DNA of 64,000 nt, from positions 1-64,000 of IMG/VR virus record IMGVR_UViG_3300035698_026680. One strand, 5' to 3'. Made by a program: the position numbers and the translations under genes. Positions 47,694-60,321 of this stretch are shown here, piece after piece. Within the stretch, counting starts at the first letter, position 1, and the number at the start of each line of letters is the position of its first letter. The notes beneath the pieces were generated by a model. That model had not been told where the DNA came from, did not search any database, and saw only the letters and a program-made list of their open reading frames with translations. This stretch comes from a virus.

Positions 47694-48452
47694 ATGAGTA
47701 AAATATTCGCAATATCCGATATTCATGGGTGCTATGATGAATTGATGGCTTTAATGAAAAAGCTACCCTTGAATCCAATAAAAGACAAAATGGTCTTTCT
47801 TGGTGACTATATTGATCGTGGTCATCAGTCAATGCAGGTAGTCAAGCAATTAATAAAATGGGATAAGAAGTATCCCCATTGGGAATTTCTCTATGGGAAC
47901 CACGAAGACCTGATGCTTGATGCTTTAGTCTATAAAGGTCGGATCTATCATTCCTACGATCTCTGGTACGGTCAGGGGGGCAAAGAAACAGCTAAGAGTT
48001 ACTTTCGTAAGAACATGAATAAATACGACATGGCTATTAGTCAACCGAAGGATCACATAAAATGGAAACATTTAGATTGGCTCAGAAAACGACCAATTTA
48101 TCACGAAACGGAGAAATACTTTTTTGTCCACGCTGCGGTTTTGCCAAATATAACCCTGGCGGAGTTCAAGCATCATATTGATAATAACGAAGCTCCTGTT
48201 AGGGGAGCGGCGATTTGGGCAAGAGAAGACTTTATTAATTGTAAATACGATTGGGGGAAAAAGATTATTTTTGGACACACCGCCAATAGTAGCAATCGAA
48301 AATGGGGAAAACCTTTTGAGCCGATTGTGATGGAAAACAAAATAGGAATAGATACGGCAGTTTGTCCAGGTCGATGCAATAAATTAACGGCAGTCGAATT
48401 GCCAATAGAAAAGTTTTACTTTCAGGAGTACATATGGAAAAACAAAATATAA
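47694..48452 (+). CDS. metallophosphoesterase (Ser/Thr phosphatase-like)
   Basis: DIHG, GDYIDRG, GNHE, HA, GHT and IDT motifs. Confidence 0.92.
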   Translation: MSKIFAISDIHGCYDELMALMKKLPLNPIKDKMVFLGDYIDRGHQSMQVVKQLIKWDKKYPHWEFLYGNHEDLMLDALVYKGRIYHSYDLWYGQGGKETAKSYFRKNMNKYDMAISQPKDHIKWKHLDWLRKRPIYHETEKYFFVHAAVLPNITLAEFKHHIDNNEAPVRGAAIWAREDFINCKYDWGKKIIFGHTANSSNRKWGKPFEPIVMENKIGIDTAVCPGRCNKLTAVELPIEKFYFQEYIWKNKI

Positions 48453-52646: not shown

Positions 52647-52939
52647 AACTAACAAAAGAAGAAAGAAACCTTTTACTGTTTCTCGAATACACTGCAGTAG
52701 ATCAATGGGGCTGGGTCAAAGACATAAGACATTTAAACGCAGGAGATCTTGAGATTATGAAACAGTGGAATAAGTCTGGTTTTGTTTTATCAAAGCGAGC
52801 CCATAAAAGTAAAGGCAAGCTAACCCAACTCACCTATGTTGTTAAACTTTCTCCTGAAGCATGGGGGATGGCTCACAAGCTAAGGAGAGAAAAAGCAGAA
52901 AGACATATTCCAGAAAAATTTAATAAGGAGAAAATATGA
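52643..52939 (+). CDS. hypothetical protein
   Basis: coupled ORF. Confidence 0.7.
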   Translation: MKLTKEERNLLLFLEYTAVDQWGWVKDIRHLNAGDLEIMKQWNKSGFVLSKRAHKSKGKLTQLTYVVKLSPEAWGMAHKLRREKAERHIPEKFNKEKI

Positions 52940-54117
52940 AAGTAATAAACAAAAAAAACTATAAAGTACCAGTTTTTAATTGGTGTCCAGAAATTGAAGA
53001 TGGTGCTATGGCTCAAATAGACAACTTGGCACAATTGCCATTTGTATTTAAAAGAATTTCAATAATGAGTGACTGCCATCAAGGGTACGGGATGCCTATT
53101 GGTGGAGTTATGGCCGCCGAAGGCGTAATAGTTCCAAATGCTGTCGGTGTCGATATTGGTTGCGGAATGTGTGCGGTCAAAAGCAATTTGCGAGCAATTG
53201 ATACCGATTTGCTTAAAAAGATAATGGGGGAGATTAGGAAAGTAATTCCTTTGGGATTTAATAAGCATGATAAAGAACAAGATATCAAATTAATGCCCGA
53301 CAATGAAGAATTAAAGCTAATAGTTTATCAAGAGTATAACAACGCCCTAAAATCTCTCGGCTCTCTCGGTGGTGGTAACCACTTTATCGAAATCCAAAAA
53401 GGCGACGATGGTCATATTTGGATTATGATTCATTCTGGAAGTAGAAACTTGGGGTTCAAGGTAGCCCAACACTACAACAAACTGGCGGTTGAATTAAACG
53501 AAAAATGGAAAAGCGAAGTTCCTAAGAGTTGGGGGTTAGCTTTTTTACCAGTGGATTCTCAGGAAGGTCAAGACTACATAAAAGAAATGCAATACTGTGT
53601 TGACTTTGCTTTGGCCAATCGCAAGTTGATGATGGAAAGAGTGAAGGGAATTGTTGCTAAGGTTATTCAGGAAAGTTGGATTGATGGAATAATATCTATT
53701 GGATTCGAGCCAATGATAAATATAGCCCACAACTATGCTTCTTTAGAGAATCACTTTGGGAAGAATGTATGGGTACATAGAAAAGGGGCCACAAAAGCGA
53801 CCAAGGGGTTAGTAGGCATAATTCCTGGCTCACAAGGGACTAAAAGCTATATTGTCGAAGGCTTGGGCAATAAAGAGTCGTTTATGTCTTGTTCTCATGG
53901 AGCGGGTAGAAAAATGAGTCGAAGCCAAGCAAGGAAAGAACTAAGCCTTGTGGAAGAACAATACAAAATGGAAGGTATTGTTCACGGGATCAGAAGCGCT
54001 CAAGACTTAGATGAAGCCCCAGGATCTTATAAAGACATTGGCAAAGTGATGGAAAATCAAAAAGACCTAGTTAAAATTTTAGTTGAGTTAACACCACTAG
54101 CTGTTATTAAAAGTTAA
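52936..54117 (+). CDS. rtcB: RtcB RNA ligase
   Basis: DCHQGYG.PIG, VGVDIGCG, GGGNHFIE, HSGSR, HRKGA and SCSHGAGR motifs. Confidence 0.97.
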   Translation: MKVINKKNYKVPVFNWCPEIEDGAMAQIDNLAQLPFVFKRISIMSDCHQGYGMPIGGVMAAEGVIVPNAVGVDIGCGMCAVKSNLRAIDTDLLKKIMGEIRKVIPLGFNKHDKEQDIKLMPDNEELKLIVYQEYNNALKSLGSLGGGNHFIEIQKGDDGHIWIMIHSGSRNLGFKVAQHYNKLAVELNEKWKSEVPKSWGLAFLPVDSQEGQDYIKEMQYCVDFALANRKLMMERVKGIVAKVIQESWIDGIISIGFEPMINIAHNYASLENHFGKNVWVHRKGATKATKGLVGIIPGSQGTKSYIVEGLGNKESFMSCSHGAGRKMSRSQARKELSLVEEQYKMEGIVHGIRSAQDLDEAPGSYKDIGKVMENQKDLVKILVELTPLAVIKS

Positions 54118-59624: not shown

Positions 59625-59692
59625 AGGTCGGGCGCTGGGCGCAAGAAGCACTCCAAACGCTTCTCCGCCGGGTTCAATCCCTGGACGGCCTG
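59625..59692 (+). tRNA. tRNA-Trp(CCA) with miniature D-arm
   Basis: loop CTCCAAA; G73; D-arm GCGC-TGG-GCGC; 68 nt. Confidence 0.7.
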
Positions 59693-59747
59693 CAAAAACT
59701 TAACGGGCAACTATTGAGAAGTGTGAGAGCAGGCCACTTCTCAAAAA

Positions 59748-60144: not shown

Positions 60145-60321
60145 GCGGCGATGGTGTAGTGGTAGCACATCCTTTATCGAGCAACACCCTGGGACAAGCT
60201 CCCCAGTTCGGTACCGCTCACAATATAAATTCACTAGGTTTAAAGGTCTAGAGTTTTCTCGAGAACCTTTAAGCGGATGAAGTTACAATGGAAGACAAGG
60301 GTTCGAATCCCTTTCGCCGCT
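60145..60321 (+). ncRNA. tRNA-Gly-like RNA with a 113-nt structured segment in place of the anticodon loop
   Basis: perfect acceptor GCGGCGA/TCGCCGC plus U73; normal D-arm; T-arm AAGGG TTCGAAT CCCTT; insert 60175-60287. Confidence 0.8.

What the first reader, a model, noticed from the sequence alone, without database searches (positions are those of the whole stretch)
60145..60321. Natural tRNA-scaffold RNA: intact tRNA-Gly body carrying a 113-nt structured domain instead of an anticodon loop
Seen: perfect 7-bp acceptor with Gly-type G1-C72, C2-G71 and U73, canonical D- and T-arms, a 4-nt variable loop and a TCCTT/ATGGA anticodon stem. Positions 60175-60287 replace the 7-nt loop. The insert folds into a CTGGG/CCCAG hairpin and a long TTCA..TTAAAGGT/ACCTTTAA..TGAA hairpin, with a possible CCGCT/AGCGG pairing. 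No simple excision that I tried regenerates a U33-NCC loop. It is much shorter than typical group I introns, and I see no canonical bulge-helix-bulge. Inference: either a non-standard intron needing cleavage plus the phage RtcB, or a cargo RNA (decoy, aptamer, guide) that uses RNase P and 3' processing for stability. The undegraded tRNA body suggests selection.
Basis: partly seen in the sequence, partly recalled or inferred. Interest (0 to 1): 0.9.

Follow-up and report, generated by a model that had tools for sequence, protein, structure and literature searches.

The report
Phage tRNA-shaped RNA carrying invariant hairpin
This phage gene makes a tRNA-shaped RNA that cannot read codons; it holds out a small hairpin kept letter-for-letter in related phages, so it joins the old, still unexplained class of phage "tRNA-like stable RNAs" (T5 RNA1) rather than being a spliced tRNA.

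Summary
Window 60145-60321 (+) is a complete tRNA body (acceptor, D and T arms, 4-nt variable loop) whose anticodon loop is replaced by 113 nt.

I found 11 further distinct copies in uncultured phage contigs, nearly all at the same place in the tRNA cluster. In all of them an 18-nt hairpin (stem CURRG/CYYAG, 8-nt loop ACAAGCUC) is kept: the loop is invariant and the stem covaries. The rest of the insert ranges from 33 to about 113 nt. Acceptor stems and discriminator bases differ freely. One copy (L119) carries the identical hairpin in a different tRNA body type.

- No single excision restores a U33/purine-37 loop in 6 of 10 members, and no anticodon is shared.
- A complete relative keeps the RNA without RtcB.
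- L104 has it next to both normal tRNA-Glu genes.

The intron-plus-RtcB reading is therefore disfavoured and the "cargo on a tRNA scaffold" reading is supported.

The design is not new. T5 RNA1 (annotated, function unknown) has the same layout and the same pattern of invariant loop and covarying stem. This scan has noted tRNA-shaped phage RNAs on other DNA before, but not this hairpin. The partner and the function remain unknown.

The parts
60145..60321 (+). Whole tRNA-shaped RNA gene, 177 nt, with no encoded CCA. It lies 4 nt after tRNA-Asn (ends 60140) and 6 nt before tRNA-Ala (starts 60328).
   Evidence: Sequence; flanking tRNAs; family covariance model R1 scores 102.9 bits, E = 1.1e-21, and finds a single copy in the 102.5-kb genome.
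60145..60151 (+). Acceptor stem, 5' strand (GCGGCGA). It pairs with 60314-60320 (TCGCCGC); the discriminator is U at 60321.
   Evidence: Seven of 7 pairs. All seven acceptor pairs change on both sides across the homologues.
60154..60168 (+). D arm: stem GTGT/GCAC, loop AGTGGTA with G18 and G19.
   Evidence: The D stem is 100% paired in 10 homologues.
60170..60174 (+). 5' strand of the anticodon-like closing stem (TCCTT). It pairs with 60288-60292 (ATGGA) in 4 of 5 positions. The alternative closing helix is 60172-60178 with 60276-60282.
60179..60219 (+). Arm A, the conserved payload. It consists of lower helix GAGC/GCTC, an internal loop, CC/GG, a 3-nt bulge, and the hairpin CTGGG-ACAAGCTC-CCCAG (60189-60206; loop 60194-60201).
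   Evidence: The 10-mer GACAAGCTCC is identical in all 12 members, and the stem covaries: CTAGG/CCTAG, CTGGG/CCCAG, CTAAG/CTTAG. The lower helix is present with a different sequence in every member.
60238..60274 (+). Arm B, a variable second hairpin (GTTTAAAGGT...ACCTTTAAGC). It is not conserved and is absent from the minimal relatives L104 and L002.
60293..60313 (+). Variable loop AGAC and T arm AAGGG-TTCGAAT-CCCTT.
   Evidence: The T stem is 100% paired, with 3 pairs that change on both sides.

Best explanation
This is a non-decoding, tRNA-shaped small RNA, not a tRNA gene with an intron.

Proposed working, with the status of each step:
1. It is transcribed as part of the phage tRNA operon. 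This is inferred from 4-6-nt spacers to the flanking tRNAs and the absence of a convincing internal promoter or terminator.
2. It is cut out by the enzymes that mature tRNAs: RNase P at the 5' end, then 3' trimming and CCA addition. This is inferred from the intact acceptor, D-arm, T-arm and elbow nucleotides.
3. It then persists as a molecule of about 177 nt. This is inferred by analogy with the stable T5 and T4 RNAs.
4. The tRNA body serves only as a processing and stability scaffold. Shown by comparison: its helices are kept by compensatory changes, while its sequence, acceptor identity and even tRNA type are free to change.
5. The working part is arm A, a hairpin with the invariant 8-nt loop ACAAGCUC closed by G-C. 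It sits on a helix and asymmetric internal loop where the anticodon loop should be. Shown by comparison: the loop is invariant and the stem covaries.
6. An invariant single-stranded loop on a covarying stem is the signature of sequence-specific recognition. I infer that the loop is read by a protein, host or phage, with the RNA acting as a decoy, sponge or adaptor. No partner was identified.
For: (1) Twelve distinct copies were found: the window, L002, L014, L024, L025/L159, L030, L034, L091, L104, L119 and L125. All are in phage tRNA clusters. Almost all follow tRNA-Asn and precede the same Holliday-junction-resolvase-like gene.
(2) The tRNA helices and the hairpin are 97.3% paired, 14 pairs change on both sides, and 0 of 500 shuffles match.
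(3) The payload is the most conserved part. GACAAGCTCC is identical in every copy, including the two found without using it as a query (the window itself, and L002 by protein synteny). A scan that left the loop free (GCGCTAGG-N8-CCTAGAGCA) returned only ACAAGCTC loops, 4 of 4.
(4) The insert varies from 33 nt (L104) to about 113 nt. Arm B is optional.
(5) Acceptor stems and discriminators (A, G or U) are not conserved.
(6) L119 carries the identical hairpin in a Thr/Pro-type body (GCTCAGTTGGTAGAGC D arm, AGGTC variable loop). The other copies have Glu/Gln-type bodies.
(7) No single excision gives a 7-nt loop with U33 and purine 37 in 6 of 10 members, and no anticodon is shared.
(8) L104's copy lies directly upstream of normal tRNA-Glu(CTC) and tRNA-Glu(TTC). 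The window phage also has both Glu tRNAs.
(9) T5 RNA1 has the same layout. Across 8 phages of 3 genera it shows the same pattern of invariant loop (ACATCCRC) and covarying stem.
Against:
- No partner was identified.
- Loop invariance is partly ascertainment, because most copies were found with a pattern that contained the loop.
- The complete relative G002 has only 7 ordinary tRNAs and no tRNA-Glu. There, a decoding role after some unknown processing cannot be excluded on the grounds of redundancy.
- The phage does encode RtcB 6 kb upstream.
- Symmetric changes in an inverted repeat would also fit a DNA operator.
Confidence: 0.6

Rival explanations
1. It is an intron-containing tRNA. A protein endonuclease cuts out the insert, and RtcB (phage or host) joins the halves to give a working tRNA.
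For: The phage encodes RtcB at 52936-54117 (372.8 bits). The tRNA body is intact and under selection. ARAGORN -i can force an intron model. Small unexplained introns are reported in Lak megaphage tRNAs (PMC6784885). G002 has no ordinary tRNA-Glu.
Against: - In the best-paired register, 6 of 10 members cannot regenerate a loop with U33 and purine 37, and there is no common anticodon.
- Identity elements vary while the 'intron' is the conserved part, the opposite of what orthologous intron-bearing tRNAs show.
- G002 keeps the RNA without RtcB or an Rnl2-type ligase. G001 has RtcB but no such RNA in its tRNA cluster upstream of queD.
- I saw no bulge-helix-bulge, and there is no group I or group II match in Rfam.
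- The copy is supernumerary beside both Glu tRNAs in L104.
Confidence: 0.12
2. It is an antisense or kissing-loop regulator. The exposed loop ACAAGCUC pairs with a complementary RNA (GAGCUUGU) of the phage or the host.
For: An invariant loop on a stable hairpin is also typical of loop-loop antisense RNAs. The loop contains the self-complementary AGCU.
Against: The complement occurs only twice on the coding strand of the 102.5-kb genome, which is the chance level; the backwards control gave 1 and 1. There is no match to the 10-mer with up to 1 mismatch elsewhere in the window. The host is unknown, so host targets could not be tested.
Confidence: 0.1
3. It is processing punctuation (a 't-element'). 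The tRNA shape only directs RNase P and 3' processing to free the downstream mRNA, and the insert has no function of its own.
For: In 8 relatives the element ends 20-30 nt before the start codon of the next gene.
Against: Ordinary tRNAs fill that position in other relatives (L256, L261). In the window, three tRNAs follow the element. A functionless insert would not keep an 18-26-nt core identical while everything around it diverges.
Confidence: 0.07
4. It is a DNA-level element lodged in a decaying tRNA gene: the inverted repeat CTAGG-N8-CCTAG is an operator or a homing-endonuclease site.
For: The half-sites are palindromic. Homing endonuclease genes are common in these tRNA clusters: a LAGLIDADG-like insertion next door in L024, and HNH-like ORFs in other relatives.
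Against: The tRNA body is not decaying. Every acceptor pair covaries and the elbow nucleotides are kept. The lower helix of arm A covaries with unrelated sequences, which only an RNA structure explains.
Confidence: 0.04
5. It is an aminoacylated tRNA mimic (tmRNA-like, alanine-accepting) that acts on ribosomes or on aminoacyl-tRNA-using enzymes.
For: Four members (L014, L025/L159, L034, L104) have G3.U70 with A73, the main AlaRS identity set (the identity rule is established knowledge).
Against: The window copy has G3-C70 and U73, and other copies have C-G, U-A or a mismatch at 3:70. ARAGORN finds no tmRNA in the window. No tag reading frame is evident by eye.
Confidence: 0.04

Closest known systems
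Phage T5 RNA1 (rna1, T5s03; NC_005859 30501-30644), annotated 'tRNA-like stable RNA with unknown functions' and present in 487 T5-like phage records
   Same: - A full tRNA body in a phage tRNA cluster, with the anticodon loop replaced by a closing stem, a short helix, an asymmetric A/U-rich internal loop and a 5-6-bp hairpin with an 8-nt loop.
- The loop is invariant (ACATCCRC) while the stem covaries.
- In T5 itself the stem is CTAGGA/TCCTAG, and the loops share 5 of 8 bases (ACA..C.C).
- Model R1, with filters off, aligns T5 RNA1 end to end with the two hairpins in register (15.7 bits).
   Different: - The T5 body is Leu-type, with a long variable arm; here it is Glu/Gln-type (Thr/Pro-type in L119).
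- The loop sequence differs.
- There is no BLAST match, and R1 misses T5 RNA1 with default filters.
- Five of 8 loop identities has a chance probability of about 0.03 (my binomial estimate). Common descent is therefore unproven.
Phage T5 RNA2 (T5s06) and T4 species 1 and 2 RNAs (rnaC, rnaD)
   Same: They are stable RNAs inside phage tRNA clusters with a tRNA-like acceptor and T arm and no anticodon. T5 RNA2 holds an internal T-arm-like hairpin (GCTCGTTCGATTCGAGT). This resembles arm B of L014, L025, L030 and L125, whose loop is CGTTTCGAATG.
   Different: There is no shared sequence with the window's insert, and the window's own arm B lacks the T-loop motif. Their functions are equally unknown.
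tRNA genes with introns: bacterial group I introns in anticodon loops, archaeal bulge-helix-bulge introns joined by RtcB, and the 'enigmatic' tRNA introns of Lak megaphages (PMC6784885)
   Same: Extra sequence sits in the anticodon loop of an otherwise normal tRNA gene, and the phage encodes RtcB.
   Different: There is no group I core and no Rfam match. The insert can be as short as 33 nt. No anticodon loop can be restored. RtcB does not track the element.
tmRNA and bacterial Y RNA-like YrlA (tRNA-mimicking non-coding RNAs)
   Same: Both are non-decoding RNAs that reuse the tRNA acceptor, T arm and elbow.
   Different: ARAGORN finds no tmRNA here. YrlA scores 16.6 bits against a gathering score of 69, and that match rests on T- and D-arm pieces of two neighbouring genes. 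No Ro/TROVE protein is encoded in the genome. The topology also differs: by my recollection YrlA's ends lie at the anticodon side.
Engineered 'tRNA scaffold' for producing recombinant RNA (an insert placed in the anticodon stem; recalled from memory, not checked here)
   Same: The same logic: cargo replaces the anticodon loop, and the tRNA body gives processing and nuclease resistance.
   Different: That is a laboratory design. This is a natural, evolving gene family.

Membership tests
Canonical elongator tRNA (Rfam RF00005) | Acceptor, D and T arms with the elbow nucleotides (U8, A14, G18 G19, T-loop TTCGA) | tested here: met
   Sequence. Helices kept by covariation. The relatives L014 and L104 reach 44.1 and 49.4 bits on RF00005.
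Canonical elongator tRNA (Rfam RF00005) | A 7-nt anticodon loop with U33 and purine 37 on a 5-bp stem | tested here: not met
   The loop is replaced by 113 nt. Standard ARAGORN and the RF00005 gathering search skip the locus. The only RF00005 match there is a 3' fragment (60273-60321) at 15.9 bits.
Intron-bearing tRNA (any splicing route) | Excision restores a functional anticodon loop, and orthologues share the same anticodon | tested here: not met
   Enumerating all single excisions gave no valid loop in 6 of 10 members and no shared anticodon.
Group I intron in a tRNA | Conserved P3-P9 catalytic core, usually 200 nt or more, matching Rfam Intron_gpI | tested here: not met
   No match even at E up to 10. 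Inserts of 33 and about 42 nt exist in the family.
Archaeal-type protein-spliced intron (bulge-helix-bulge plus RtcB) | A bulge-helix-bulge motif at the exon-intron junctions | tested here: not met
   By inspecting the folds I found no pair of 3-nt bulges separated by 4 bp at the junctions. No dedicated BHB scanner was run.
Archaeal-type protein-spliced intron (bulge-helix-bulge plus RtcB) | Co-occurrence with the ligase | tested here: not met
   G002 has the element but no RtcB or Rnl2 family hit. G001 has RtcB but no element in its tRNA cluster upstream of queD. A host ligase is not excluded.
T5 RNA1 family | A tRNA body whose anticodon loop is replaced by a helix, internal loop and hairpin with an invariant 8-nt loop | tested here: met
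T5 RNA1 family | Detectable sequence or profile homology to T5 rna1 | tested here: inconclusive
   No BLAST match. R1 hits T5 RNA1 only with filters off, at 15.7 bits, below ordinary tRNAs. Loop identity is 5 of 8.
T5 RNA1 family | Accumulates as a stable small RNA in infected cells | not testable with these tools
tmRNA | A tRNA-Ala-like domain (G3.U70) plus a tag reading frame and pseudoknots | tested here: not met
   ARAGORN finds no tmRNA in the window. The window copy has G3-C70 and U73.
YrlA / bacterial Y RNA | Rfam RF02553 match and a Ro (TROVE) partner gene | tested here: not met
   16.6 bits against a gathering score of 69. No TROVE domain in the genome.
RNA anti-CRISPR (CRISPR-repeat mimic) | The hairpin matches a repeat that occurs in arrays in prokaryote genomes | tested here: not met
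   All 95 genome-contig loci and all 118 metagenome loci with the 18-nt pattern hold a single match each; there are no arrays.

The most novel reading that the evidence does not exclude
Arm A is a portable payload module that phages graft onto whatever tRNA body is at hand: Glu/Gln-type in most copies, Thr/Pro-type in L119 and, in diverged form, Leu-type in T5 RNA1. Its invariant loop would neutralise or recruit one specific host factor, for example a defence nuclease or an RNA-binding protein. Under this reading the 40-year-old 'tRNA-like stable RNAs' of T5-like phages and this family are one functional class of tRNA-scaffolded decoys.
Probability: 0.18. Interest if true: 0.8.

Novelty: new variant of a known kind. 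Interest (0 to 1): 0.5.

Why it matters
Phage tRNA clusters have long been known to hold tRNA-like stable RNAs (T5 RNA1 and RNA2, T4 species 1 and 2) whose function has never been found.

This family gives an unusually clean comparative handle on that class:
- the tRNA body behaves as an interchangeable scaffold;
- an 18-nt hairpin with an invariant 8-nt loop behaves as the payload.

That turns 'function unknown' into a concrete experiment: pull down whatever binds the loop, and mutate the loop while keeping the stem. T5 RNA1 offers a culturable model of the same design.

It also has a practical use for annotation. Such loci should not be called pseudo-tRNAs, intron-bearing tRNAs or 'tRNA-Ser(cga)'.

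Tried and rejected
- Rfam, both at gathering thresholds and at E up to 10, on the window and on four relatives. Nothing matched but tRNA. Faint matches to plastid UTRs, mir-5045 and YrlA rest on T-arm or hairpin fragments.
I rejected this because bacterial tRNA-Ser has a long variable arm and the splice site is non-canonical.
- BLAST of the element and of its surroundings against 50,697 phage records found no cultured relative; only T-arm matches came back.
- RtcB as the splicing partner: it does not co-vary with the element. For other ligases, Rnl2 is absent; the Rnl1 search was uninformative because its control rang nowhere.
- Ro/Y-RNA module: no TROVE protein.
- Antisense target: the complement of the loop occurs at chance frequency in the genome.
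- CRISPR-repeat mimic: the pattern is never in arrays.
- Prophage or host copies: none of the 76 genome-contig loci scanned with R1 (of the 95 that matched the pattern) holds a tRNA-embedded copy. The other matches in those loci are chance hits in coding DNA.
- The same 10-mer next to GOLLD RNA in Lactobacillales-type prophages (L013, L016-L018, L020, L027) does not form the hairpin and is probably coincidence.
- Downstream 110-aa protein as partner: it is a weak Holliday-junction-resolvase relative and is also present in relatives that lack the RNA.
- PreQ1 riboswitch, considered because queD/E/C lie downstream: no Rfam match.

Full report
**What is there.** The window is the first 64 kb of a complete 102.5-kb phage record with direct terminal repeats, about 37% G+C. 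It carries 27 ARAGORN tRNAs in two clusters. It also encodes RtcB, RecA and SSB, and a queD/queE/queC block just downstream. No cultured phage is close.

- a 7-bp acceptor stem and U73;
- canonical D and T arms with the elbow nucleotides;
- a 4-nt variable loop;
- 113 nt where the 7-nt anticodon loop should be.

The TCCTT/ATGGA stem has one U.U mismatch. The fold is more stable than shuffles, z = -3.64. Standard tRNA finders skip the locus. ARAGORN with introns forces a 'tRNA-Ser(cga)' model, which does not fit a tRNA with a short variable loop. Rfam has no family for the insert.

**Relatives.**
- A queD-based search brought in L002. Upstream of queD it has a second interrupted tRNA whose roughly 42-nt insert shares the loop ACAAGCTC on a stem with compensatory changes: CTAAG/CTTAG against the window's CTGGG/CCCAG.
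- Pattern scans of IMG/VR and metagenome contigs, filtered for tRNA context, added more copies.
- A covariance model built from the alignment added the rest.

The total is 12 distinct copies: the window, L002, L014, L024, L025/L159, L030, L034, L091, L104, L119 and L125. The genome-contig scan gave no tRNA-embedded copy among the loci I screened. Nearly all copies follow tRNA-Asn and precede the same 110-aa Holliday-junction-resolvase-like gene. Each complete genome has one copy. Other relatives have ordinary tRNAs at that position (L256: Asp, Glu, Ile).

**What is conserved.** In the 10-sequence alignment the acceptor, D, T and hairpin helices are 97.3% paired. Fourteen pairs change on both sides, including all seven acceptor pairs, and 0 of 500 shuffles match. 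The tRNA fold is therefore under selection, so this is not a pseudogene. The sequence conservation is unusual:
- the 10-mer GACAAGCTCC is identical in every copy, and in six copies an invariant block GCGCTAGGACAAGCTCCCTAGAGC (24 nt);
- acceptor stems share almost nothing, and the discriminator is A, G or U;
- a scan that left the 8 loop positions free returned only ACAAGCTC.

Folding the middle parts alone gives a common plan: a closing stem, then arm A, then an optional and variable arm B. Arm A is a 3-6-bp helix that differs in sequence in every member, an asymmetric internal loop, and the hairpin. L104 (33-nt insert) and L002 lack arm B. In four members arm B ends in a T-loop-like CGTTTCGAATG.

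**Swappable body.** Under the family model the best ordinary tRNAs are tRNA-Glu (41.2 bits; the window's own tRNA-Glu(CTC) scores 33.6). Arm-by-arm comparison puts ten members nearest Glu/Gln-type tRNAs. L119 carries the identical hairpin, at the same genomic position, in a body with a GCTCAGTTGGTAGAGC D arm and an AGGTC variable loop, nearest Thr/Pro types. It folds as a clean cloverleaf with a 9-bp closing stem, arm A and arm B, z = -5.05. So the payload is constant and the scaffold is exchangeable.

**Intron or cargo?** Five points argue against an intron.
1. Enumerating every single excision, 6 of 10 members cannot regain a 7-nt loop with U33 and purine 37, and no anticodon is shared.
2. 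In an intron-bearing tRNA the exons, not the intron, should carry the conserved identity. Here it is the reverse.
3. RtcB does not track the RNA. The complete relative G002 has the RNA but no RtcB or Rnl2-type ligase. G001 has RtcB but no such RNA in its tRNA cluster upstream of queD.
4. L104's copy sits immediately 5' of normal tRNA-Glu(CTC) and tRNA-Glu(TTC). The window phage also has both.
5. There is no group I, group II or ribozyme match, and I saw no bulge-helix-bulge.

A long arm with an internal loop in place of the anticodon arm would also put any 'anticodon' far from where the ribosome needs it; this is an inference from tRNA geometry. Two caveats remain: G002 has only seven ordinary tRNAs and no tRNA-Glu, and I could get no RNA data.

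**How it most likely works.** By inference, the RNA is co-transcribed with its neighbours; spacers are 4-6 nt and there is no convincing internal promoter or terminator. It would be released by RNase P and 3' processing, receive CCA, and persist because it is folded like a tRNA. Comparison shows that the working part is the arm A loop. An invariant single-stranded loop on a covarying stem is how sequence-specific RNA-binding proteins, or loop-loop partners, are usually addressed. I favour a protein partner, with the RNA acting as decoy, sponge or adaptor, and I cannot name the partner. These checks for specific partners were negative:
- no Ro protein;
- the loop's complement is at chance frequency in the genome;
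- the hairpin is not a CRISPR repeat.

Four members have G3.U70 with A73, the alanine identity set. The window copy does not, so charging is not a family trait.

**Comparison with what is known.** Following a lead from earlier notes of this scan, I read the T5 tRNA region.
- T5 RNA1, annotated 'tRNA-like stable RNA with unknown functions', is a Leu-type tRNA body. Its anticodon loop is replaced by a closing stem, helix AGGT/ACCT, an asymmetric A/U-rich internal loop, and hairpin CTAGGA-ACATCCGC-TCCTAG.
- It is present in 487 T5-like records. Across eight phages of three genera the loop is invariant (ACATCCRC) while three stem pairs change on both sides. This is the same evolutionary signature as here.
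- The two loops share 5 of 8 bases. The family model aligns T5 RNA1 with the hairpins in register, but only weakly (15.7 bits, filters off). I therefore call it the same design, with possible but unproven homology.
- T5 RNA2 has an internal T-arm-like hairpin resembling arm B of some relatives. T4 rnaC and rnaD are further analogues.
- Lak megaphage tRNA 'introns' are the nearest published intron-type case (PMC6784885).

**Verdict.** The locus is a new family, not in Rfam and with no cultured member, of a known but unexplained kind. Earlier notes of this scan describe many tRNA-shaped phage RNAs on other DNA. A sequence look-up with this element found only this same stretch.

Noticed in passing
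window 59627-59697 (+); also L003:3476-3546 and L002:3268-3337: A tRNA-Trp(CCA)-like gene with a reduced D arm (3-4-bp stem, 3-nt loop UGG) and loop ACUCCAAAC. ARAGORN and Rfam miss it in the window, so the phage is not lacking tRNA-Trp. ARAGORN does call a 69-nt tRNA-Trp of this kind in L104 (1329-1397).
   Followed up: partly
L024:4066-4899 (-): In this relative the gene after the element starts with the same MSQAWK motif as the 110-aa resolvase-like gene but runs to 278 aa and contains a LAGLIDADG-like motif (LHGDGY). It looks like a homing-endonuclease or intein-type insertion.
   Followed up: no
L104:1505-1790 (+): A phage-borne tmRNA (Rfam RF00023, 76.3 bits) sits inside a tRNA array in which ARAGORN tRNAs, on the same 6-kb metagenome contig as the minimal 98-nt family member.
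   Followed up: no
L014, L025/L159, L034, L104 (acceptor stems): Four family members have G3.U70 together with discriminator A73, the alanyl-tRNA synthetase identity set also used by tmRNA. The window copy has G3-C70 and U73.
   Followed up: partly
L016:1883-2042 (and L013, L017, L018, L020, L027): In the prophage-type contigs L013, L016-L018, L020 and L027 (L013 carries a GOLLD RNA, RF02032, 207.8 bits), L016 shows an unannotated 160-nt stretch between tRNA-Asn and tRNA-Met. It contains a D-loop-like segment and the same 10-mer GACAAGCTCC, but not as a hairpin loop.
   Followed up: no
L297:1065-1072 (E. coli rrsH, 16S positions 994-1001): The invariant loop of most T5-like RNA1 genes, ACAUCCAC, is identical in sense orientation to a stretch of E. 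coli 16S rRNA at the start of V6. Ten of 200 shuffles give such a match, so this is a weak lead at best. The window's loop has no such match in E. coli 16S, and its host is unknown.
   Followed up: partly
window 47694-48452 and 52936-54117 (+): A NinI-like phosphoesterase (PHROG 246, with a weaker match to an RNA-ligase-annotated PHROG) lies 4.5 kb upstream of RtcB. Together they may form an RNA end-healing and sealing repair pair, independent of the tRNA-like RNA.
   Followed up: no
L272 and L034, upstream of the resolvase-like gene: Other relatives carry different conserved non-tRNA stretches in the same slot, for example gtaacctaaactg(a/c)aagcatggtt in L272, L034 and L038. The end of this tRNA cluster looks like a cassette site for small structured RNAs.
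   Followed up: no
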